Both the position numbers and the translations under genes were made by a program. A stretch of 36,010 bases of DNA, taken from the UHGV virus genome UHGV-0022223; one strand, written 5' to 3'. Numbering within the stretch: position 1 is the stretch's first letter; each line of letters starts with the position of its first letter. Under the pieces are notes generated by a model. It saw only the letters and a list, made by a program, of their open reading frames with translations, ran no database searches and had not been told where the DNA came from. This stretch comes from a virus. Of the stretch, positions 1 through 10,999 are shown one piece after another.

Positions 1-2678
1 CGTTCAATAATTTCCCGGTGTAGCCTGGCGCGCAGGCTTTCCTGCTTAACATTCCACATGCTGATGGTTTTCAGGTCAGCACCGATACGCACGCCGTCTA
101 GGTCGATCTCAAGGTCAGGGCGCACACGAACTTCCAGTCCCGTCTCCTCGTCAAAGCCAAAGTAGCTCACCTCAACGGCGCGGCTCGGGTGGGTTAGCAG
201 CATGCCTGCGGTCGGGTGCGAGAGCAGTGCTGACTGAATTGCCTGCGCGGTGGCAAGTTGCTGGTGGGTAACCAGCACTTTCCCTTCCGGGTTGTTGCGC
301 CACGCATCGAGCAGCTCGTCGGCGAACACTGCATCTGGTTTGACTGCCTTCACGGCCTGAATCAGATCGGCCTTCGTGCCAGAGACTTTCAGCGGTTGCA
401 GCTTCTGAGCTTCCTGCGCGACCAGGTCAGGATTGATAATCGCAAGTTGTTCGAGTAGTGCGTCGCGGCTGCCGCTGGTTTTAATCTGCGCTGGCAGGGT
501 GGCGTTGTACTCTTTGATGCACGCCTTCATTGCTGTTGCTGTCTTCTTCTGATCTGCATCGATACGTTGGAATTCAGCTGGCAGCGCCATATAGTTCTGC
601 GCCGTTTCATCCAGGCTAGCGCCCAGCGGCACCAGCGCTGGCAGGGTGGCGTTGTATTCATCCAGCAAAGCTTTGATATCGTCTGCGCTCAGTTGCGCTG
701 GCAGGCTGGCGTTGTACTCATCAATAAACGCGCGGATCGTTGCCGTGGTGGTAAATGCACCTTCCGGAATTACGGGTTCAACGCTAAATTCTTCATCGAG
801 CTGTTCTGGCTGCAACGCCAGCGCATGTACCAGGTTTCCCATGTCCAGCACTGAGGAGCGCTCTTTGACGATGGTTTTCTCAACGTGGCGCGCATTGAAG
901 TACATCAGCGAAACGCGCGCATCTTTTACCTGGGTGGAACTGATGCCGTTGGCAGCGTGGTAAACCTCGTTCGGCAGACCTTCATAGCGGCCCGGTTCGA
1001 AATAGGCAGGGTATTCCGGCGTGCTGGCGATTTCCTCCGGTGCTTCGGTGGTCATTTCCGGCTGTGAGTCGTTCGCCAGCTCCGGCGCCACGGCAGCCAG
1101 AACCTCAGCCGGGGTCAGGGAAGCTGTTTGCGGATCAGCTGCATCAGAGCTTTCGCCTGGTGGAACCGTGTTACCAGTTTCTCCTTCCGCCGGGTCAGTC
1201 TCTTCCATCTGCACATCGCTGGTGGTCTCCTCTGTAACCGGTGAACGGTCATCTGTTTGTGGTTGTTTTTCGCTCATCAGGCCATCAATGGAGAACATGC
1301 CGCCGCCGAGGTTAGCGACCTGAGGCTGGCTATCAGTGGAGGTTGCTTCAATGTTTGCTGGGTGAAGCCTTTCATCAGCAGCGCGCTGGCGCATCAGATC
1401 CACAACAGAAAGCGCAGGTTCAGGTCGTTTTTGTTCACCGGCGTTCAACTCGCCATGAAACTCTTCCAACACTTCATCAACCTTCTGCCATGCCGCATCT
1501 ACCATTTCCTGGGTAACTACTTCCTGCTTATGCTCGCTATTGCCATAAATAGGCAGCAACTCAGTCGCAGCATTAAATTCAGCCGTCATCGTCTGGTTTA
1601 CGAACTCCAGATGAGCAACCGGCGTTAGGTGGATATTCTCAGGCGCGATGCGCACCAGGTTGAAGATGGCCGCGCGGTTAACAGCCAGAACGCCGGGCTG
1701 GTTGCGCAGGATTTTGCTCCATGATTTCCATGGTTCTTCTTTGTTCGCGACAATCTCCTTGGCGCGGCGGTGGATGCTGCCCGGGATTTCCAGATGGTTG
1801 AAGTCCATAGGCAGAAGGGCACATGCAATCTCTAAATCGAGAGTGTCAAGGGTATGGTATGCATCAGGTCCACGGTCAGTGACGTAACCGCCGTTGGCAT
1901 TGGTTCCGGAATCAGTACGCTGAACACTACTGATGTGATTACCGGCAGCCCATTCACGCGCCAGGATGCCACGGTCAATGTAATCAGTCGCCGCCCACAT
2001 TCTGGTGAAACGGAGTACCAGCGCGAGTTCGTGACGCTTGTCCTGGCTGAACACTTTGCGAATGGCATCGGTGTAGCGCCACAGGTCTTTGGTGTCGTAA
2101 CCCTTCACTTCCGGGCAGTTCTCAGCAGCTAACAGCAAGTTCTGGACGTAACTGTTATCAGTGTCCATCTCCAGCGCGCCGATAGCTTCGTACTCTTCGC
2201 GGGTTACGTGGTGGCGCAGTTCGTCGGCGGTGAACTGGGAAAGCAGTTGCTTACGAAACGGCATCTGCACTACCGGGTAGAGGGTTGAGTCGTCGTCGTG
2301 TTCGTCCAGCGTGATGCCAGCGGTTTCTGGCAGCGTTGACTCAGTAGTTATGTGACTATCAACGGTCTGAGCCGTTTTCTCGTCAGAGTTTTCAGCTGTG
2401 ACTTTTGGCAGCCAGGTGCGGTCATCGTTCTGCAGTTCGTAGCGTTTGCACCAGGTGTAATCCACTGCGCCTTCTTCCGGCAGGTCGTCATATACCGGGA
2501 AATCGGTGCGGATTGGTTTGGCATAATCTTTACCGCGGCCAGTTTCTTCAATTCCGGCTTCTTCCAGTGCCACATCGAGTTGGAGATTGGCGCGCGCTAC
2601 ACTTTTCGCAGTGAACCAAATCACTGCATCTTTCTTGCCAGACTTCTGACTGGCTTTTATCAGATGGAAAAATTCCAT
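1..2678 (-). CDS. recE: RecE-like exodeoxyribonuclease VIII (partial; C-terminal part lies beyond window start)
   Basis: Uninterrupted minus-strand frame from ATG at 2678 (RBS AAGAGGA upstream) to the window edge; absent from the ORF track because truncated. N-terminal DFPVYDDLPEEGAVDYTW and TDYIDRG...RTDSGTNANGGYVTDRG blocks resemble Rac RecE from memory. Confidence 0.7.
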   Translation of the reverse strand, partial: MEFFHLIKASQKSGKKDAVIWFTAKSVARANLQLDVALEEAGIEETGRGKDYAKPIRTDFPVYDDLPEEGAVDYTWCKRYELQNDDRTWLPKVTAENSDEKTAQTVDSHITTESTLPETAGITLDEHDDDSTLYPVVQMPFRKQLLSQFTADELRHHVTREEYEAIGALEMDTDNSYVQNLLLAAENCPEVKGYDTKDLWRYTDAIRKVFSQDKRHELALVLRFTRMWAATDYIDRGILAREWAAGNHISSVQRTDSGTNANGGYVTDRGPDAYHTLDTLDLEIACALLPMDFNHLEIPGSIHRRAKEIVANKEEPWKSWSKILRNQPGVLAVNRAAIFNLVRIAPENIHLTPVAHLEFVNQTMTAEFNAATELLPIYGNSEHKQEVVTQEMVDAAWQKVDEVLEEFHGELNAGEQKRPEPALSVVDLMRQRAADERLHPANIEATSTDSQPQVANLGGGMFSIDGLMSEKQPQTDDRSPVTEETTSDVQMEETDPAEGETGNTVPPGESSDAADPQTASLTPAEVLAAVAPELANDSQPEMTTEAPEEIASTPEYPAYFEPGRYEGLPNEVYHAANGISSTQVKDARVSLMYFNARHVEKTIVKERSSVLDMGNLVHALALQPEQLDEEFSVEPVIPEGAFTTTATIRAFIDEYNASLPAQLSADDIKALLDEYNATLPALVPLGASLDETAQNYMALPAEFQRIDADQKKTATAMKACIKEYNATLPAQIKTSGSRDALLEQLAIINPDLVAQEAQKLQPLKVSGTKADLIQAVKAVKPDAVFADELLDAWRNNPEGKVLVTHQQLATAQAIQSALLSHPTAGMLLTHPSRAVEVSYFGFDEETGLEVRVRPDLEIDLDGVRIGADLKTISMWNVKQESLRARLHREIIE
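488..719 (-). repeat. Three near-identical 25-bp intragenic direct repeats (488-512, 635-659, 695-719) inside recE-like gene
   Basis: GCGCTGGCAGG(G/C)TGGCGTTGTA(C/T)TC occurs three times; encodes a repeated EYNA(S/T)LPA peptide in the minus-strand frame. Confidence 0.8.
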
Positions 2679-2816
2679 GTGAGATCCTCTTTTTTGAGTG
2701 TTAGAATCCCCGGGCCAGAGATAGCGCCCATTGGATGTTTTTTGGTTTGGTATAAATTCCGGTGTAACTTTGGTCGGTGGCACCGGACGTAGACCCCGCC
2801 TTGCGCGGGTTTTACG

Positions 2817-4197: not shown

Positions 4198-5502
4198 TTA
4201 TTGACGATTAAAGTAGTTAGAGTTTAGCTCTTTAGGGAAGTAGTGTTTACGATTTACCCAAACAAATCCATCAACTTTTGATATCACAGCGACATCAACA
4301 GGCCCACCGACAGTTTCATAATCATGTGATACTTTTCTTTTGAATGCAGTGATGTTCACTAATGATTCGGCCATATACGCAAGATCTGCCTTCCCAAGTG
4401 ATTGCAACATCGATATCATTTTATTTGTATGGTTATTAACAATATAGCTTTCAAGTTTAGTATCGTGATCTTGTAAAAGTACGTTTTTGAGTTCCTCAAT
4501 TTCACTGGAGAAGTGATTGGCTAGTACTCCATTGTTCATTGCAGGGAAAATATTGCTAGAAACATAATGATTAAGCCGATCAAAAACTTCCTCTGTAAGA
4601 GTTCTGTTAAAATTAATGATGTTAGGGTTGCACCCATCAATGAAAGTTACTACTTCATCTTCTTGAGCAAATGGTATAACAAACCCCATATTGGTTACCT
4701 CATTATGGGATTTCTCATCAATATTATGGATCATCAATTTGTTTTTAAAAATGCCGTAGATATGAAGAGTGCAAATGGAAGGGTAATATTCTTCCTCTCC
4801 ATAACCTGTTATAACAATCCCTGAATATGTACGACTAGCATGGACTTTGAAAATTAAACAAGTGGAATATAATATGACTTTTTCCATAAGCTCTTGCTGT
4901 ATATTTTCACAGTTATCAAGAACAATAATTGATGAAATGTATGGCGATATTAAATCTTGTATATATGCTAAAGCATCATTAAACTCTTCTGTATCAAACC
5001 CTTCGAAAAAGAGATTATTCCTTAAGATTCCTATCTCTAAATCAAAGGCTTGCTTAACTATGTTTTGAAAAATAACATTGTCGAGTTCAACGGCGGGGTT
5101 CATTGTTAAATAGTTTACTACATTATTATCATTAATGTATCTCATCAAACCTTTGAGGTTATCAACAACAAGGTTTATAACGCAAGCCTCTCTCATTTCA
5201 TTTGTTATAAGGTCTGAGTTACCATTGATGAATTTTACAAAGTCATTAACATATTCTTTAATGGTAGGGAAACTAGTTTTCCCCAATTGTTTTCTATAGG
5301 ATTTAATTATAAGTTCCCACGGTGCGCCACCCAGTGTCGCATTATTATAAATCATGATCCCCACGGGATGGTGTTTAGATAGTTCGAATAGTTTTTCCGC
5401 ACTATTATTTATTTTTACTAATCTATTATGCTCTGTGGTGACTGCAGAGTCAGCAGCAAGGGCGATTCCAGTATTATTTATTACAACAATCTCAGCTGTC
5501 AT
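4198..5502 (-). CDS. 434-aa protein with proteasome-beta/HslV-like Ntn-hydrolase sequence blocks and a large internal insertion; AT-rich moron
   Basis: Long ORF in strongly AT-rich DNA. Starts MTAEIVVINNTGIALAADSAVT...KLF (Thr after Met, Asp about 16 residues later, Lys before LF), has a TGYGEEE block, and ends GGPVDVAVISKVDGFV, which closely resembles the proteasome beta C-terminal strand recalled from memory. Confidence 0.8.
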   Translation of the reverse strand: MTAEIVVINNTGIALAADSAVTTEHNRLVKINNSAEKLFELSKHHPVGIMIYNNATLGGAPWELIIKSYRKQLGKTSFPTIKEYVNDFVKFINGNSDLITNEMREACVINLVVDNLKGLMRYINDNNVVNYLTMNPAVELDNVIFQNIVKQAFDLEIGILRNNLFFEGFDTEEFNDALAYIQDLISPYISSIIVLDNCENIQQELMEKVILYSTCLIFKVHASRTYSGIVITGYGEEEYYPSICTLHIYGIFKNKLMIHNIDEKSHNEVTNMGFVIPFAQEDEVVTFIDGCNPNIINFNRTLTEEVFDRLNHYVSSNIFPAMNNGVLANHFSSEIEELKNVLLQDHDTKLESYIVNNHTNKMISMLQSLGKADLAYMAESLVNITAFKRKVSHDYETVGGPVDVAVISKVDGFVWVNRKHYFPKELNSNYFNRQ

Positions 5503-5641: not shown

Positions 5642-6028
5642 TCAGTCCCCCTGCGAGCGAATCCGCCCCTTCATGTACTTCTCATACAGCTCATCCAGTT
5701 CCTTAAGACGTATCGAAAAGATGCGGAGCATGTTCTGTTGCTCTTCTTCTGGCAGCTGGCGGTAGAGCTCAAGCAGGCGCTGTTCGTCCGGCTTAAGTCC
5801 GTCCTTCTCGCCGACATCCTCACCGAGTAACCAAGGCACAGACACGCCAGCTGCGTCAGCGACAGCGAGAGCTGATTTCTTGCTGATCACGCCTTTTTTA
5901 AACCAGCCGTTCACAGACTGCGGGGTTACCCCAGCAACCCTGGCCATATCGGATTTGGTCATACCGCGCCCGTTCAGCTCTGAAAGGCGTTCGACAAGTA
6001 TCGGATTAAGTACGGTTTTCTCTTTCAT
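5642..6028 (-). CDS. Prophage repressor, HTH XRE family, DicA/RacR-like (no S24 peptidase domain)
   Basis: 128 aa; N-terminal HTH (MTKSDMARVAGVTPQSVNGWF) and a C-terminal LLELYRQLPEEEQ segment resembling DicA from memory; divergent from a Cro-like gene with operators between them. Confidence 0.75.
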   Translation of the reverse strand: MKEKTVLNPILVERLSELNGRGMTKSDMARVAGVTPQSVNGWFKKGVISKKSALAVADAAGVSVPWLLGEDVGEKDGLKPDEQRLLELYRQLPEEEQQNMLRIFSIRLKELDELYEKYMKGRIRSQGD

Positions 6029-6132
6029 GGTTAGAAGAATAAGCCTTTTGCTTAAATTTGAAAATTCGCCTCAGGCTTGACAATAAATTAAGTCTCAGGC
6101 TTAATTTGATTGTATTCAAATCGGAGACAACG
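6029..6132. promoter_or_regulatory. OR-like region: divergent PR/PRM-type promoters with three operator sites
   Basis: Operator-like sites at 6040-6055 (TAAGCCTTTTGCTTAA), 6068-6080 (GCCTCAGGCTTGA) and 6088-6104 (TTAAGTCTCAGGCTTAA); TTGACA at 6077-6082 gives a rightward promoter. Confidence 0.6.
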
Positions 6133-6351
6133 ATGAACGGGTTAACGAAAGCCATTAAGTCCGCTGGCACTGCAACAAATCTCGCAACCATGCTGGGCAT
6201 CAAGCCGATGTCGGTCAGCCGCTGGAAAAACCGGTACCAGGGCGTGGTGCCTGCTGATCGGGTCCTTCAAATCTACGCGGCTACCGGCGTAACTCCACAC
6301 GAGCTGCGCCCTGATCTCTATCCAAACCCAAGTGACGGTTTACCAAAGTAA
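6133..6351 (+). CDS. Cro-like / YdaS-family HTH regulator
   Basis: Internal ATG of track ORF 6058..6351 with RBS GGAGA; 73 aa with HTH (TATNLATMLGIKPMSVSRW); divergent from the repressor. Confidence 0.7.
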   Translation: MNGLTKAIKSAGTATNLATMLGIKPMSVSRWKNRYQGVVPADRVLQIYAATGVTPHELRPDLYPNPSDGLPK

Positions 6352-6362
6352 GGAATGTAACT

Positions 6363-6902
6363 ATGCAATCACTTACGTATCAACAGAGTAACGGGTTCAT
6401 TTCAGCAGCGCTGATAAATCGCGCTCAACCAAAACCGGGCGTCAGTTGTGGTGCCCTCCGTGATGCTGTTCGCGCCTGGTCAGCAGTAGCCGGGCAGGAC
6501 GTTGTAACGGCCCTGATCGTTGAAGAGTGGCACCGGATAGGTGGCGAAGGTATCGACTTTCCGGCAGATCACAGCCGTGCCCGGCAGAAGCTGTTCCGCT
6601 TCTTGGATAACCATTTCAACAGCGAACGGTACCGCGAGAACGTCCGCCAGCTGACGCCGGCAATCCTCGCTGTCCTGCCGATTGAATACCGCAATCGTCT
6701 GCTACCAGAAGACAACGTAATGGCTCGTCTGGCAAGGCTGGAGAAGGAAACCAGCGAAGCGAAGATTGCTGTCGCAATGGATGCGCCACGTCATCAGAAG
6801 CTGAAAGAGTTGAGCGAGGGGATCGTGGAGATGTATCGCGTTGACCCTGGGTTAACCGGTCCGTTGATGGAAATGGTGCAGATTATGCTGGGGGCTATAT
6901 GA
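6363..6902 (+). CDS. YdaT-like / CII-position regulator (hypothetical)
   Basis: 179-aa ORF with RBS AAGGAA directly after the cro-like gene; position matches Rac ydaT. Confidence 0.5.
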   Translation: MQSLTYQQSNGFISAALINRAQPKPGVSCGALRDAVRAWSAVAGQDVVTALIVEEWHRIGGEGIDFPADHSRARQKLFRFLDNHFNSERYRENVRQLTPAILAVLPIEYRNRLLPEDNVMARLARLEKETSEAKIAVAMDAPRHQKLKELSEGIVEMYRVDPGLTGPLMEMVQIMLGAI

Positions 6903-6986
6903 CCGGTTCAAAAATGGCGAAAGCCGCGGTGCTCGAACACCAACGGCTTTCAGGTGCAAAAACAGTGCGTAATTGCGGAGAACAGT

Positions 6987-7895
6987 ATGTCAAACACCGC
7001 TGAAATAATCAATTTCCCAAATAAAACCGAACAACCGGGAGGTCGTATGGCCGACCTGTCGAACGGGTATACCAAGGTCGCTAACGAGATCCAACAGCTT
7101 AAGCCTCGCCTGAGACTGTCAGGCCGGGAATGGCAATGTTTTGAGGCGGTGATCTGGCTTACCTACGGCTGGAACAAGAAACAGGACCGCGTGACAAATA
7201 CGGTTATTGCCGAGCTTACGGGCCTGAGCGATACGCATGTATCGGACGCGCTTAAGTCTCTCGCAGAACGCAAAATCATCTTTTCACAGAAGCAGGGCAT
7301 GATGAAAATCGTCGGTGTAAACACTGACCTTTCAGCATGGATTTTAGACAAACCGGAAACGGGAAGAAAATTCCCGAAAACAGGAAAATCCTTCCCGAAA
7401 TCAGGAATAACCTTCCCGAAAACGGTAGACACCCAATACAAGAACAAGAACAGTATTAAAAGATCTTCGTCCGAGAATTCTGACGAATCCTCTGACGCAC
7501 GTCTGAAGAAATTTTTATCAACTCATCCTGAAGCTGCGGTCTACACACCATCCGGTGCGAAGTGGGGCTCTGCTGAAGACCTCGAGACAGCTAAGTGGAT
7601 TTCCTCCAGGGTGAAGCTGATTAACCCAACCTGCAAAGCCCCGGACATGACCTCCTGGTCTAACACTGTTCGCCTGATGCGCCAGATAGACGACCGGTCG
7701 CACCAGGACATCTGCGCGCTGTATGACTGGGCTAGCAAACACCACTTCTGGCAGACCAACATCCTGAGTCCCGAAAGCCTGCGTAAGCAGTGGGACAAGC
7801 TGACAATGCAGCGTAACGCCGGAGGTGAGCAGCGCGCTGTCAAGCCAGATCTGGACTTCAACAACACTGACTGGGCCTATGGGGTGATCCGATGA
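6987..7895 (+). CDS. O: Replication initiator, lambda O-like
   Basis: Start at internal ATG (MSNTAEIINFP...) with RBS GGAGAA; N-terminus and RMADLSNGY resemble lambda O from memory; iterons inside the gene; stop overlaps the P start. Confidence 0.75.
   Translation: MSNTAEIINFPNKTEQPGGRMADLSNGYTKVANEIQQLKPRLRLSGREWQCFEAVIWLTYGWNKKQDRVTNTVIAELTGLSDTHVSDALKSLAERKIIFSQKQGMMKIVGVNTDLSAWILDKPETGRKFPKTGKSFPKSGITFPKTVDTQYKNKNSIKRSSSENSDESSDARLKKFLSTHPEAAVYTPSGAKWGSAEDLETAKWISSRVKLINPTCKAPDMTSWSNTVRLMRQIDDRSHQDICALYDWASKHHFWQTNILSPESLRKQWDKLTMQRNAGGEQRAVKPDLDFNNTDWAYGVIR
7353..7432 (+). repeat. Origin iterons inside the O gene (about four direct repeats) followed by an AT-rich stretch
   Basis: CCGGAAACGGGAAGAA, TTCCCGAAAACAGGAAAA, TTCCCGAAATCAGGAATA, TTCCCGAAAACGGTAGAC; each encodes part of the FPKTGK-like peptide repeat. 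Confidence 0.7.
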
Positions 7896-8582: not shown

Positions 8583-8822
8583 ATGAACATAACAATCCGT
8601 GAGCAGGTGCTGGCAGCCCTGCGCAACAACCCAGGGTTGAACAACGCCAAACTGGCAGGGCTTCCCGGAGTGGTACATCATCGATCAGGACTATCGGGGG
8701 CAGAAGTACGCGAAGGACAAGCAGGTTGCGCGTTGTGGCAACGCAGTTCCGCCGCCATTCGCCGAGGCACTGGTGAGGGCTAATTTACCGGAGCTTTGTC
8801 AGCAGAAAGAGATCGCAGCTTA
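8583..8822 (+). pseudogene. Degraded gene: 28-codon N-terminal frame joined out of frame to a DNA methyltransferase C-terminal fragment
   Basis: ATG at 8583 runs into a frame change; from about 8602 a second frame encodes ...CGNAVPPPFAEALVRANLPELCQQKEIAA, resembling the C-terminal motif of DNA methyltransferases; no upstream catalytic motifs. Confidence 0.35.
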
Positions 8823-8922
8823 ATGTCCGAGTTTCAGAACATGGTGTAACAAATCCTGCTACTTCAATGACGTAGATTCAAACCTGATATAATTAGGCTC
8901 TTCACAACACGAGGAGCCTAAA

Positions 8923-9159
8923 ATGCACCATTACATGATCCCTATCAACGGAACTGTTCACCTGATCAAGACTGACTCTCTAATCCCTGAAGGGACTGAG
9001 TATAGCTTTGAAGGAGAAAGTCTAATCTGCGCTCATGCCACTTTTAAATCTGGGACGTATGGCTTCCTGATACCAAAGGGAAATCAGTTGAATAGAGAGC
9101 ATGCGTTCTGGCATGTAAGTGGAATTCACCCTAATCCCCTGGGAATGGATAAATCGTAA
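8923..9159 (+). CDS. Hypothetical 78-aa protein in AT-rich insert
   Basis: RBS GAGGAG before the ATG; perfect TATAAT at 8887-8892 upstream; lower GC than flanks. Confidence 0.5.
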   Translation: MHHYMIPINGTVHLIKTDSLIPEGTEYSFEGESLICAHATFKSGTYGFLIPKGNQLNREHAFWHVSGIHPNPLGMDKS

Positions 9160-9168
9160 TCCATAATA

Positions 9169-9205
9169 TGCATGCCATCGTCCTGAACATACGGTGGCAT
9201 GCATC
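9169..9205. repeat. Perfect 10-bp inverted repeat ATGCATGCCA / TGGCATGCAT with 17-nt spacer
   Basis: Arms at 9169-9178 and 9196-9205 are exact reverse complements; no U tract follows. Confidence 0.7.
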
Positions 9206-9270
9206 CGGCACTACAACAGAAACGTTAAAGTGCAAACAATACAATTCGAGCAATATTCAACCTGTCACAG

Positions 9271-9412
9271 ATGGCGAATACCACCGCCATTTCGTGCATT
9301 CTGTGGTTTCTATTACCCATTGCGTTAATGCTGTCCAATCATCAGCTCGCTGAGGCGCTGGTTAGGGCTAACCTACAGGAGCTTTGTCAGCAGAAACAAA
9401 TAGCAGCGTAAT
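9271..9412 (+). other. Small ORF fusing a hydrophobic N-terminus to a second diverged copy of the methyltransferase 3' end
   Basis: MANTTAISCILWFLLPIALMLSNHQ then LAEALVRANLQELCQQKQIAA; 9335-9412 is about 80 percent identical to 8745-8822. Confidence 0.25.
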
Positions 9413-9428
9413 AAAACATCGCTAATTC

Positions 9429-9457
9429 AACCCGCTACGGCGGGTTTTCTTTTTTTA
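9429..9457 (+). terminator. Rho-independent terminator
   Basis: AACCCGC-tacg-GCGGGTT followed by a T-rich tract. Confidence 0.7.
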
Positions 9458-9495
9458 CTACTGACAGAAAATTAACAATTTGTGCTCTTAAAGCG

Positions 9496-9538
9496 TTGAT
9501 CATTTCCGCGCATAGGTATACTGTATAAAAACACAGTA
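9496..9538 (+). promoter_or_regulatory. Promoter with overlapping LexA (SOS) box for the dinI-like gene
   Basis: TTGATC, about 15-bp spacer, TATACT; TACTGTATAAAAACACAGTA at 9519-9538 fits the LexA consensus CTGT-N8-ACAG. Confidence 0.75.
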
Positions 9539-9556
9539 AATGCAATGGGGGCCATT

Positions 9557-9790
9557 ATGAAAGTTGAATTAACCATTGATCGCATGAAAGAACTTCCTAA
9601 AGGCGCAGTACCAGCACTGGAGAAAGAACTGCTTAAGCGCCTGAATGATCACTATGACAATTGCAGGCTCACAATCCGCCGTGCCGGGGCCGATGGGTTA
9701 AGTGTTTTTGGTGGTGACAAGGACGATAAAAAGAAAATTGAATCAATCCTCCAGGATACCTGGGAAAGCGCTGACGACTGGTTTTATTAG
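9557..9790 (+). CDS. dinI: DinI-family DNA-damage-inducible protein
   Basis: MKVELTIDR... with C-terminal ILQDTWESADDWFY resembling E. coli DinI from memory; second ATG of the track ORF; LexA box upstream. Confidence 0.8.
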   Translation: MKVELTIDRMKELPKGAVPALEKELLKRLNDHYDNCRLTIRRAGADGLSVFGGDKDDKKKIESILQDTWESADDWFY

Positions 9791-9907
9791 AATTGCGCTT
9801 AAGGCTGGCGCGCATTTTTCAGAATACCGCAATTTGCGTAACCCTCTGATGCTGCTGCCGACAATCTTTAATCGCGTCTGTTAGTCGCTCGAAGGGAGAA
9901 CATAAAT

Positions 9908-10156
9908 GTGAGTGATTCAGCTTTGCAAACGTCAGAAGACAACTGGTATGACATTGTAAGAAGGTCTGACGGCTGCGTGGTGTTTAGCTTTCCTTCATCG
10001 GGCAGGCATCTAATTTATCGCGTCAATGGCATGGTTTCTATGCGGCCTTTGCTGGATGATGAAGAGGTCTTTACTCCTAATGGTTTTATGCAGTTTATTC
10101 ACCGTCTCGGCTACCGGGTAACCCCACCTTCTGATAATATGAAATCAACGGTCTGA
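9908..10156 (+). CDS. Hypothetical protein (GTG start)
   Basis: 82-aa ORF with RBS AAGGGAGA before the GTG. Confidence 0.45.
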   Translation: MSDSALQTSEDNWYDIVRRSDGCVVFSFPSSGRHLIYRVNGMVSMRPLLDDEEVFTPNGFMQFIHRLGYRVTPPSDNMKSTV

Positions 10157-10190
10157 ACAACCGTAACCTACTGCGCCACGGAGAGAAACC

Positions 10191-10793
10191 ATGGCGCACG
10201 AACTACAACTCATCAAGCATTCCTCAGGAATCCTGATCCCCGCTACGCCGGAGACCAGTGATTTACTGCAATCAAAAATCAAACTCGGCTCCGTACTGGT
10301 GGCTGAGTTCCGGCAGGTACGCAACCCGGCCTTTCACCGTCGTTTCTTCGCGTTACTCAATCTCGGTTTCGAATACTGGGAACCCACCGGCGGGGCAATC
10401 TCCTCCAACGAACGCAAACTCGTTAATGGTTATGCCAGATTCCTTGCATCATACGGCGGCAATGAAAGCGCTCTGCTGGATGCTGCTGAGCAGTATCTGG
10501 AGCAGATCGCCAGTCGGCGTATCACGAACGGCATAAGTCTGTGTAAATCCTTCGACGCTTACCGCGCATGGGTGACCGTCGAAGCCGGGCACTATGACGC
10601 AATCCAGTTACCAGATGGAACTCTCCGCAAACATCCCCGCAGTATCTCATTCGCAAATATGGATGAAACTGAGTTCCAGCAGCTGTACAAAGCCGCGCTC
10701 GATGTTCTGTGGCGATGGATACTCTCCCGATCATTTCGCAGTTGTGAAGAGGCAGAAAACGCCGCCGCCCAGCTGATGAGCTTTGCGGGGTGA
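10191..10793 (+). CDS. Nin-region protein, YbcN/DUF1367-like
   Basis: 200-aa ORF with RBS GGAGAGA; RNPAFHRRFFALLNLGFEYWEP motif recalled as typical of the YbcN family; precedes YbcO-like and RusA as in DLP12. Confidence 0.55.
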   Translation: MAHELQLIKHSSGILIPATPETSDLLQSKIKLGSVLVAEFRQVRNPAFHRRFFALLNLGFEYWEPTGGAISSNERKLVNGYARFLASYGGNESALLDAAEQYLEQIASRRITNGISLCKSFDAYRAWVTVEAGHYDAIQLPDGTLRKHPRSISFANMDETEFQQLYKAALDVLWRWILSRSFRSCEEAENAAAQLMSFAG

Positions 10794-10999
10794 TGGCGAT
10801 GAAATTTTCCTGGTTCCACCATCACGAATGCACCACCGAACAGGCCGACGAGCTGGTGGAGAAATACCGGGCGCGCGGTGTAAAGACAGAGCGCAGCCTG
10901 AATCGCGACAACATCACCTGGACCGTCAGCGCGCAATTGCCGGAAGGCGATAACGCGCCTCGCCCGAGCCGGGTATGGCAAAGCAAGGCGTGGGGGTGA
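10790..10999 (+). CDS. Hypothetical small protein
   Basis: 69-aa ORF overlapping neighbours at both ends; no recognisable motif. Confidence 0.35.
   Translation: MMAMKFSWFHHHECTTEQADELVEKYRARGVKTERSLNRDNITWTVSAQLPEGDNAPRPSRVWQSKAWG

What the first reader, a model, noticed from the sequence alone, without database searches (positions are those of the whole stretch)
9496..9790. SOS-regulated dinI-like gene carried by the prophage
A near-consensus LexA box (CTGT-N8-ACAG) overlaps the -10 element of a promoter driving a DinI-family gene. A prophage-encoded DinI could modulate RecA activity in the host during SOS and thereby affect induction of this or other prophages.
Basis: partly seen in the sequence, partly recalled or inferred. 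Interest (0 to 1): 0.4.

Follow-up and report, generated by a model that had tools for sequence, protein, structure and literature searches.

The report
SOS-controlled dinI–antirepressor prophage induction operon

Summary
A perfect 20-nt LexA palindrome (TACTGTATAAAAACACAGTA, 9519-9538) sits over the likely -10 element, 18 nt upstream of a 77-aa DinI gene (9557-9790; Pfam E 3.8e-26).

The layout is terminator, LexA box, dinI, an 82-aa GTG-start ORF (9908-10156), then a DUF1367/irsA homologue (10191-10793). This is the LexA-controlled dinI-gfoA-irsA operon of Salmonella Gifsy prophages (Lemire 2011).
- The published gfoA cloning primers map to both ends of the 82-aa ORF. It is 93% identical to the Salmonella GfoA-type protein.
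- The window's repressor (5642-6028, minus strand, 128 aa) has an HTH domain only and no S24 self-cleavage domain. It is 63% identical to GfoR.
- In 24 of 26 genome loci and 53 of 54 viral loci the box is kept upstream of the antirepressor. Five of those loci have no dinI at all.

Induction therefore most likely runs through LexA cleavage, antirepressor synthesis and repressor inactivation. In Gifsy, dinI deletion did not alter induction.

This is a new, untested member of a known kind, and of low interest. The window is 99.9% identical to prophages in E. coli chromosomes and 98.9% to phage mEp237.

The parts
9429..9456 (+). Rho-independent terminator-like hairpin (AACCCGCTACGGCGGGTT) followed by a T run. 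It insulates the SOS unit from the upstream early-right operon.
   Evidence: Terminator scan. The same hairpin is kept in related loci. Lemire et al. describe such palindromes upstream of the LexA box in all Gifsy prophages.
9496..9524 (+). Putative sigma-70 promoter. The -35 element is TTGATC (9496-9501). The -10 element is TATACT (9517-9522, 15-nt spacer) or TACTGT (9519-9524, 17-nt spacer).
   Evidence: Read from the sequence and conserved in register in Citrobacter and Gifsy loci. The strict consensus scan did not report it. The promoter is inferred, not shown.
9519..9538 (.). LexA operator (SOS box), TACTGTATAAAAACACAGTA.
   Evidence: It is conserved in 24 of 26 genome loci and 53 of 54 viral loci at the same distance from the antirepressor start, 388-392 nt against 389 nt here.
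9557..9790 (+). dinI homologue (77 aa), first gene of the operon. The Shine-Dalgarno sequence is GGGGG at 9547-9551.
   Evidence: Pfam PF06183, E 3.8e-26. phrog_189, 'RecA filament binding protein DinI'. PDB 1GHH, E 9.5e-18.
9791..9907 (+). Conserved dinI-antirepressor leader. It holds a weak terminator-like hairpin (9794-9812, followed by TTTTT) and the Shine-Dalgarno sequence AAGGGAG (9892-9898).
   Evidence: It is about 90% identical to Gifsy-1 and Gifsy-2. No significant fold and no covariation were found.
9908..10156 (+). GfoA-type antirepressor gene (82 aa, GTG start), annotated only as 'hypothetical protein' in public records.
   Evidence: The published gfoA primers map at 9912-9928 (1 mismatch) and 10117-10138 (3 mismatches). 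The protein is 93% identical to the protein encoded at exact primer sites in Salmonella-type viral contigs. It hits phrog_340. hhalign against GftA gives probability 67%, E 5e-5.
10191..10793 (+). irsA homologue (DUF1367; NinB/Orf-like in PHROGs), third gene of the unit.
   Evidence: Pfam PF07105, E 2.5e-96. phrog_319. It holds the same position as in Gifsy-1 and Gifsy-2.
5642..6028 (-). Prophage repressor of the GfoR/GftR/DicA type (128 aa). It has an HTH domain only and no S24 peptidase domain, and is the presumed target of the antirepressor.
   Evidence: Pfam finds HTH_3 only. It is 63% identical over its full length to GfoR, E 8e-57, 27% to GftR and 29% to DicA.
6130..6902 (+). Cro-like gene (YdaS family, 6130-6351) and a CII-like/YdaT gene (6363-6902), divergent from the repressor. 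These are the lytic genes that would be derepressed.
   Evidence: Pfam YdaS_toxin, P22_Cro and YdaT_toxin. phrog_35 and phrog_163.

Best explanation
The window carries a Gifsy-type SOS induction module in an E. coli lambdoid prophage similar to mEp237.

Proposed mechanism:
1. In undamaged cells LexA occupies the operator at 9519-9538. This blocks a promoter that lies behind a terminator and drives dinI, an 82-aa GfoA-type antirepressor and irsA.
2. DNA damage activates RecA and LexA cleaves itself, so the operon is transcribed.
3. The antirepressor is translated from a GTG start codon and accumulates.
4. It binds the short, non-cleavable HTH repressor (5642-6028, minus strand) and removes it from its operators. 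The lytic programme is then derepressed.

DinI is a co-transcribed passenger or modulator. It probably acts on RecA filaments, and it is dispensable for induction.

Shown here: the sequence features, the homologies, the gene order, and the conservation and co-occurrence of the parts.
Shown in orthologues by others: LexA dependence, antirepressor sufficiency, absence of repressor cleavage, and formation of a repressor-antirepressor complex.
Inferred for this prophage: that the same steps operate.
For: - Anatomy: terminator, LexA box, dinI, GTG-start ORF and DUF1367 gene. The order is identical in Gifsy-1 and Gifsy-2.
- Published experiments on Gifsy (PMC3121763). Induction needs a LexA-repressed locus. 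Replacing the box region upstream of dinI with PBAD made induction arabinose-dependent. The small GUG ORF between dinI and irsA is sufficient for induction. Repressors are not cleaved. GfoR-GfoA elutes as a complex. GftA releases GftR from DNA.
- The 82-aa ORF is a gfoA orthologue. Both gfoA primers map to its ends, and it is 93% identical to the protein at exact primer sites.
- The repressor has no S24 domain and is 63% identical to GfoR. This is comparable to the GfoR/GfhR pair (66% similarity), both of which GfoA inactivates.
- The box is conserved in 24 of 26 genome loci. Nineteen of these have dinI and five lack it, with the box about 170 nt upstream of the antirepressor. It is also present in 53 of 54 viral loci, 388-392 nt upstream of the antirepressor start.
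- Among 50,697 phage records, 10 of the 12 phages with an ORF82 homologue also hold a homologue of this short repressor. Identities of the two proteins correlate (Spearman 0.67, p 0.012, n=13).
- Gifsy dinI genes are induced 4.6-23x by nalidixic acid.
Against: - Nothing was tested in this prophage or in mEp237.
- The promoter hexamers are weak or oddly spaced, and the consensus scan did not call them.
- A terminator-like hairpin (9794-9812) lies between dinI and the antirepressor. It could limit read-through.
- The repressor is only 63% identical to GfoR, so its recognition by this antirepressor is assumed.
- The correlation between repressor and antirepressor identities may reflect shared ancestry rather than co-evolution.
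- The immunity region lay outside the fetched flank in most genome loci, so the pairing could be checked in only some of them.
Confidence: 0.85

Rival explanations
1. The functional payload of the SOS promoter is DinI itself. It binds host RecA filaments during SOS and so tunes induction of this prophage or of co-resident prophages, or tunes SOS mutagenesis.
For: The DinI protein is intact, and its C-terminal RecA-interacting helix motif is fully conserved. dinI is kept as the first gene in 19 of 24 related loci. Lemire et al. note that this conservation suggests some regulatory role. From established knowledge (Voloshin 2001; Lusetti 2004, both cited), DinI binds and stabilises RecA filaments.
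Against: Non-polar dinI deletions in Gifsy-1 and Gifsy-3 did not change induction levels or rates. Five related loci keep the box and the antirepressor without dinI. This prophage's repressor has no RecA-dependent cleavage domain, so RecA can act on it only through LexA.
Confidence: 0.15
2. dinI is a monocistronic SOS gene that ends at the hairpin 9794-9812. The 82-aa ORF and irsA are then expressed from another promoter, or only by read-through from the early-right operon, and are not under LexA control here.
For: A terminator-like hairpin with TTTTT lies directly after the dinI stop codon.
Against: Gifsy-1 and Gifsy-2 carry a near-identical hairpin and leader. In Gifsy-2, PBAD placed upstream of dinI drove antirepressor-dependent induction. 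The hairpin is short (6 pairs) and is not kept as a terminator in Enterobacter-type loci. No promoter-like site was found in 8800-10900. In loci without dinI the LexA box directly precedes the antirepressor.
Confidence: 0.06
3. The module is present but not cognate to this prophage's own repressor. The prophage is a mosaic, so the antirepressor may act only in trans on other GfoR/DicA-type repressors in the cell, or not at all. This prophage would then be induced by another route.
For: The dinI-antirepressor segment is 98.9% identical to mEp237, while the repressor is only 74% identical to that of mEp237, so the two regions have separate histories. Trans-acting cross-talk is documented for Gifsy and Fels-1.
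Against: GfoA inactivates both GfoR and GfhR, which share 66% similarity, and the window's repressor is 63% identical and 80% similar to GfoR. No other antirepressor and no cleavable repressor was seen in the early region. Antirepressor and repressor families co-occur in 10 of 12 phages.
Confidence: 0.1

Closest known systems
Gifsy-1/Gifsy-3 dinI-gfoA(gfhA)-irsA operon with the GfoR/GfhR repressors (Salmonella Typhimurium ATCC14028; Lemire, Figueroa-Bossi and Bossi 2011, PMC3121763)
   Same: The order is the same: terminator, LexA box, dinI, small non-AUG ORF, irsA. The box lies 389 nt upstream of the antirepressor start, as in most Salmonella-type loci. The antirepressor is 93% identical. The repressor is short, HTH-only and 63% identical to GfoR. 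A recE-like gene lies to the left of the immunity region.
   Different: The host is E. coli and the phage backbone is mEp237-like. The start codon is GTG, where most Salmonella copies have TTG. The immunity specificity differs (63% repressor identity). The replication genes are lambda O/P-type rather than O/DnaC-type. No experiments exist for this phage.
Gifsy-2 (and LT2 Gifsy-1) dinI-gftA-irsA operon with the GftR/GtgR repressor
   Same: The architecture and the LexA box are the same, and the dinI-antirepressor leader is about 90% identical.
   Different: GftA (73 aa) is only marginally similar to the ORF here: blastp is not significant, hhalign gives probability 67%, and the two fall in different PHROGs. 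GftR is 27% identical to the repressor here.
Chromosomal E. coli DinI (b1061; PDB 1GHH)
   Same: It belongs to the same family. The alignment covers the full length, the C-terminal acidic helix is conserved, and the promoter is LexA-regulated.
   Different: The chromosomal gene is not known to be coupled to an antirepressor (from my own knowledge). The phage copy is 77 aa rather than 81 aa and is the first gene of an induction operon.
Coliphage 186 Tum, and the split tum genes of PSP3 and Fels-2
   Same: It is a LexA-controlled antirepressor associated with a DinI-like sequence. The phrog_189 profile is 151 positions long, and DinI matches only its C-terminal half.
   Different: In Tum the antirepressor and DinI parts are fused, with the antirepressor first. 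Here they are separate genes with dinI first. No homology between Tum's N-terminal half and the ORF here was tested.
DicA/Rem of the cryptic prophage Qin (E. coli K-12; PMC10448788)
   Same: The system has a short, non-cleavable DicA-type repressor (29% identical, E 4e-12) that is antagonised by a small antirepressor of about 83 aa.
   Different: Rem shows no detectable similarity to the ORF here. The signal that induces Rem is unknown, and I saw no LexA box in the 250 nt upstream of rem.

Membership tests
DinI family (Pfam PF06183) | The profile match exceeds the curated threshold over the whole domain. | tested here: met
   91.6 bits against a cut-off of 24.2, E 3.8e-26, profile positions 1-63 of 63.
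DinI family (Pfam PF06183) | A protein of about 80 aa with the conserved C-terminal acidic helix (TWESADDWF) implicated in RecA binding. | tested here: met
   Alignment to 1GHH covers residues 1-76, and ILQDTWESADDWF is conserved. The role of the helix comes from the literature (Voloshin 2001, cited).
DinI family (Pfam PF06183) | Binds RecA filaments and modulates them. | not testable with these tools
   Needs biochemistry.
Gamma-proteobacterial LexA operator (SOS box) | A 20-nt palindrome, TACTGT-N8-ACAGTA, with an AT-rich centre. | tested here: met
   All 12 outer positions match, and 17 of 20 positions match TACTGTATATATATACAGTA.
Gamma-proteobacterial LexA operator (SOS box) | Overlaps the promoter or start region of the regulated gene. 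| tested here: inconclusive
   The box overlaps both candidate -10 hexamers and ends 18 nt before the ATG, close to the 19 bp reported for the validated Gifsy dinI boxes. The promoter itself is only inferred.
Gamma-proteobacterial LexA operator (SOS box) | Conserved in orthologous loci. | tested here: met
   Present in 24 of 26 genome loci and 53 of 54 viral loci.
Gamma-proteobacterial LexA operator (SOS box) | LexA binds the site and the gene is damage-inducible. | not testable with these tools
   Shown only for the Gifsy orthologues.
Gifsy-type LexA-controlled antirepressor module | Gene order: terminator, LexA box, dinI, small non-AUG ORF, irsA (DUF1367). | tested here: met
   compared.
Gifsy-type LexA-controlled antirepressor module | The small ORF is homologous to a proven antirepressor (GfoA). 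| tested here: met
   The primers map to both ends of the ORF. It is 93% identical to the protein encoded at exact gfoA primer sites. The GfoA sequence was reconstructed through the primers and not taken from a deposited GfoA record.
Gifsy-type LexA-controlled antirepressor module | The cognate repressor is short, HTH-only, and lacks the S24 self-cleavage domain. | tested here: met
   128 aa, with HTH_3 as the only Pfam match above its cut-off. It is 63% identical to GfoR.
Gifsy-type LexA-controlled antirepressor module | The antirepressor binds the repressor and releases it from the operator, and its expression is sufficient for induction. | not testable with these tools
   Shown for GfoA/GfoR and GftA/GftR. 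Here it is only supported by co-occurrence in 10 of 12 phages.
Lambda CI-type RecA-cleavable repressor | A C-terminal Peptidase_S24 domain with an Ala-Gly cleavage site. | tested here: not met
   No S24 match was found in the repressor or in the other early-region ORFs scanned. At 128 aa the protein is too short to hold one.
Phage 186 Tum-type antirepressor | A single polypeptide with an N-terminal antirepressor part fused to a C-terminal DinI-like part. | tested here: not met
   There are two separate ORFs, with dinI first and a 117-nt spacer between them.

The most novel reading that the evidence does not exclude
The operon's fixed design may act as a damage-duration filter. The design is dinI first, then a conserved leader of about 117 nt with a weak hairpin, a possible CCCU:GGGG pairing that would sequester the Shine-Dalgarno sequence, and an invariant non-AUG (GTG/TTG) start for the antirepressor. 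In this reading DinI stabilises RecA filaments and so prolongs LexA cleavage. The attenuated, poorly translated antirepressor would then reach the level needed to titrate the repressor only under sustained SOS. The same antirepressor might also act in trans on DicA/RacR-type repressors of cryptic prophages in the E. coli host.
Probability: 0.15. Interest if true: 0.45.

Novelty: new member of a known kind. Interest (0 to 1): 0.2.

Why it matters
The result corrects the annotation of a gene that public E. coli and phage records call 'hypothetical protein'. That gene is very probably the switch that induces this prophage family.

It also predicts that mEp237-like prophages, found in 58 of 5,426 complete E. 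coli genomes by megablast, are induced through LexA and an antirepressor rather than through repressor cleavage. Such antirepressors can act in trans on other prophages, so they can couple the induction of several prophages in one cell.

The mechanism itself was published in 2011, and its conservation in Escherichia was noted there. The gain is in annotation and in clear predictions, not in a new principle.

Tried and rejected
- Rfam, whole window at gathering thresholds: no RNA family.
- Fold of the dinI-antirepressor leader: not more stable than shuffles, z = 0.61. RNAalifold on 9 diverged leaders gave -4.7 kcal/mol with 0 compensatory pairs. A structured RNA element is therefore not supported.
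- Consensus promoter scan of 8800-10900: no hit.
- BLASTP of the 82-aa ORF against GftA: not significant. The profile comparison was only marginal. Against Rem there was no similarity.
- Pfam: no family for the 82-aa ORF.
- PDB sequence search with the family profile: only noise.
- AlphaFold2 model of the 82-aa ORF: moderate quality (pLDDT 70, four strands and one helix), with no significant Foldseek match in the PDB.
- Profile search of 1.84 billion representative proteins: 39 clusters at E <= 0.001. Of the ten I read, including both 73-aa entries, none was GftA.
- PDB hits of the repressor to polyubiquitin: rejected as an artefact, since no matched stretch passed on its own.
- Three exact scans using the full 22-nt reverse gfoA primer found nothing. 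Only the first 20 nt of its reverse complement match the loci, and those 20 nt are exact in 46 loci.
- Literature search for 'mEp237': returned only DOI strings.
- A general test for absence of S24 repressors across the 26 genome loci was dropped, because the immunity region lay outside the 7-kb flank in most of them.

Full report
**1. Observation**

- TTGATC lies at 9496-9501.
- The 20-nt palindrome TACTGTATAAAAACACAGTA lies at 9519-9538.
- A GGGGG Shine-Dalgarno sequence lies at 9547-9551, the ATG at 9557 and the stop codon at 9788-9790.

The palindrome matches all 12 outer positions of TACTGT-N8-ACAGTA. My own arithmetic gives about 0.002 such sites by chance in 36 kb. The looser CTGT-N8-ACAG pattern occurs twice against 0.6 expected.

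The 77-aa product is a DinI protein.
- Pfam PF06183: E 3.8e-26.
- phrog_189.
- Full-length alignment to E. coli DinI, PDB 1GHH: E 9.5e-18, with the C-terminal TWESADDWF helix intact.

The promoter is the soft part. The -10 element is either TATACT with a 15-nt spacer or TACTGT with a 17-nt spacer, and the consensus scan reported nothing. In both readings the box overlaps the -10 element.

**2. Context**

The window is a lambdoid prophage.
- It is 99.9% identical over 9300-10250 to chromosomal prophages in E. coli. Fifty-eight of 5,426 complete genomes have a match.
- It is 98.9% identical over the same stretch to phage mEp237.
- The early region reads as follows: a recE-like open frame running off the left end; an AT-rich 434-aa accessory gene; a 128-aa HTH repressor on the minus strand (5642-6028); a YdaS/Cro-like gene; a YdaT/CII-like gene; O and P.
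- A terminator lies at 9429-9446. After it come the LexA box, dinI, an 82-aa GTG-start ORF (9908-10156) and a DUF1367 gene (10191-10793). YbcO, RusA and Q-type genes follow.

**3. What it is**

Gifsy-1 and Gifsy-2 have the same order of genes. Lemire et al. 2011 (PMC3121763) showed the following for these prophages.
- The repressors are not cleaved on induction.
- Induction needs a LexA-repressed locus next to the dinI homologue, and that locus is preceded by a terminator-like palindrome.
- The small GUG-start ORF between dinI and irsA (gftA, gfoA or gfhA) is sufficient for induction.
- Its product binds the repressor and releases it from DNA.

The primers they used to clone gfoA map to the two ends of the window's 82-aa ORF: 9912-9928 with 1 mismatch and 10117-10138 with 3 mismatches.
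- The forward primer occurs exactly in 59 IMG/VR contigs.
- The protein encoded there (the dominant form in 35 of the 59) is 93% identical to the window ORF.
- Twenty nucleotides of the reverse primer are exact in 46 of the contigs.

The gfoR primer recovered a 131-aa GfoR sequence in two of these contigs. The window's repressor is 63% identical and 80% similar to it over its full length, E 8e-57. Pfam finds only an HTH domain and no S24 domain in the window's repressor. It also aligns with GftR (27% identity) and with DicA (29% identity), including the shared LLELYxQLPE motif.

**4. Comparative tests**

Of 26 genome loci that encode an ORF82 relative, 24 carry a perfect CTGT-N8-ACAG box.
- In 19 of them the box lies 16-20 nt (mostly 18-19 nt) upstream of a dinI start codon.
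- In 5 of them (Silvania and Leclercia) there is no dinI, and the box lies about 170 nt upstream of the antirepressor's GTG.
- The two exceptions are the weakest, partial matches.

Among the viral contigs, 53 of the 54 with enough upstream sequence have the box 388-392 nt upstream of the antirepressor start. In the window the distance is 389 nt. The LexA box therefore travels with the antirepressor, and dinI is optional.

In the 50,697-record phage collection, 10 of the 12 phages with an ORF82 homologue also carry a homologue of this short repressor. Identities of the two proteins to the window's copies correlate (Spearman 0.67, p 0.012, n=13). Shared ancestry could explain this correlation as well as co-evolution could.

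**5. Mechanism**

- Shown in orthologues: LexA represses the operon. DNA damage relieves the repression. The antirepressor accumulates and inactivates the repressor without proteolysis.
- Shown here: every sequence component of that circuit is present, intact and in register.
- Inferred: the circuit operates in this prophage, and the 63%-identical repressor is recognised. This is plausible because GfoA acts on both GfoR and GfhR, which share 66% similarity.

The hairpin after dinI (9794-9812) does not block read-through in Gifsy-2. There the leader is about 90% identical, and PBAD placed upstream of dinI drove induction.

DinI's own contribution is unresolved. Its deletion had no effect on Gifsy induction. 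Its conservation as the first gene in 19 of 24 loci still suggests a modulatory role.

**6. Comparison and novelty**

The closest relative is the Gifsy-1/Gifsy-3 dinI-gfoA-irsA module with GfoR. Related in logic but not in sequence are 186 Tum, a fused antirepressor-DinI protein, and Qin DicA/Rem.

Lemire et al. already noted that the dinI-irsA region is conserved in Escherichia prophages. This is therefore an uncharacterised member of a known kind. The practical gain is re-annotation of a 'hypothetical protein' as the probable induction switch.

**7. Dead ends**

- Rfam found no RNA family in the window.
- The leader has no significant fold and no covariation.
- The antirepressor has no relative in the PDB by sequence or by fold.
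- The antirepressor family is small: 39 representative clusters.

**Verdict**

- The real feature is a LexA-controlled dinI-antirepressor-irsA induction operon paired with a non-cleavable repressor.
- Interest is low (0.2).

Noticed in passing
window 4895-4914: A second LexA-like palindrome, TGCTGTATATTTTCACAGTT, keeps the exact CTGT-N8-ACAG core. It lies in the middle of the 434-aa minus-strand ORF, about 730 nt beyond the end of the repressor gene. In loci L010 and L023 a different 157-aa gene at the equivalent position also contains an internal box (TACTGTATATATTTACAGTA in L010). This may be chance in AT-rich genes, or it may be a second SOS-responsive site next to the immunity region.
   Followed up: partly
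window 4198-5502 (minus strand): An AT-rich 434-aa accessory gene (33-38% GC against about 50% in its neighbours) lies directly downstream of the repressor. It matches phrog_5990 over its full length but has no Pfam or PADLOC match. Homologues at 29-40% identity occur in Streptococcus phages and satellite phages and in Stenotrophomonas, Providencia and Porphyromonas phages. It could be a moron or a defence gene of unknown function.
   Followed up: partly
window 9791-9910 and the aligned leaders in L002, L006-L022: The leader between dinI and the antirepressor is conserved across genera. The antirepressor start codon is always non-AUG: GTG here and in all 21 aligned loci, TTG in 51 of 59 Salmonella-type viral contigs. 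RNAalifold pairs a conserved CCCU with the GGGG of the Shine-Dalgarno sequence, but without covariation. L027 and L028 lack most of the leader.
   Followed up: partly
L023-L026, L029 (Silvania, Leclercia), about 6810-7000: A variant of the module lacks dinI. The LexA box is followed by an untranslated leader of about 170 nt and then the GTG-start antirepressor and irsA.
   Followed up: partly
window 12357, 25501, 33032, 35580: Six sites match TACTGT-N8-ACAGTA with up to 2 mismatches, against 0.65 expected, and no shuffle reached six. These four each keep only one intact half-site, so LexA binding seems unlikely. The excess is unexplained.
   Followed up: no
L010 421-894 (minus strand; Citrobacter werkmanii prophage): The gene next to the repressor in this related prophage matches the PADLOC candidate defence family PDC-M63A at E 9e-42. 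The slot downstream of the repressor therefore seems to hold interchangeable accessory or defence cargo.
   Followed up: no
window 1-2815 (minus strand): A minus-strand frame stays open for at least 938 codons and runs off the left end of the window. By its position it corresponds to the recE/exodeoxyribonuclease VIII gene of Gifsy-1 and Gifsy-2. It was not scanned against any family library.
   Followed up: no
window 5642-6028 compared with mEp237: The prophage is a mosaic. The dinI-antirepressor region is 98.9% identical to mEp237, but the repressor is only 74% identical. Nearly the same antirepressor is thus paired with different immunity alleles, which fits trans-acting cross-talk.
   Followed up: partly
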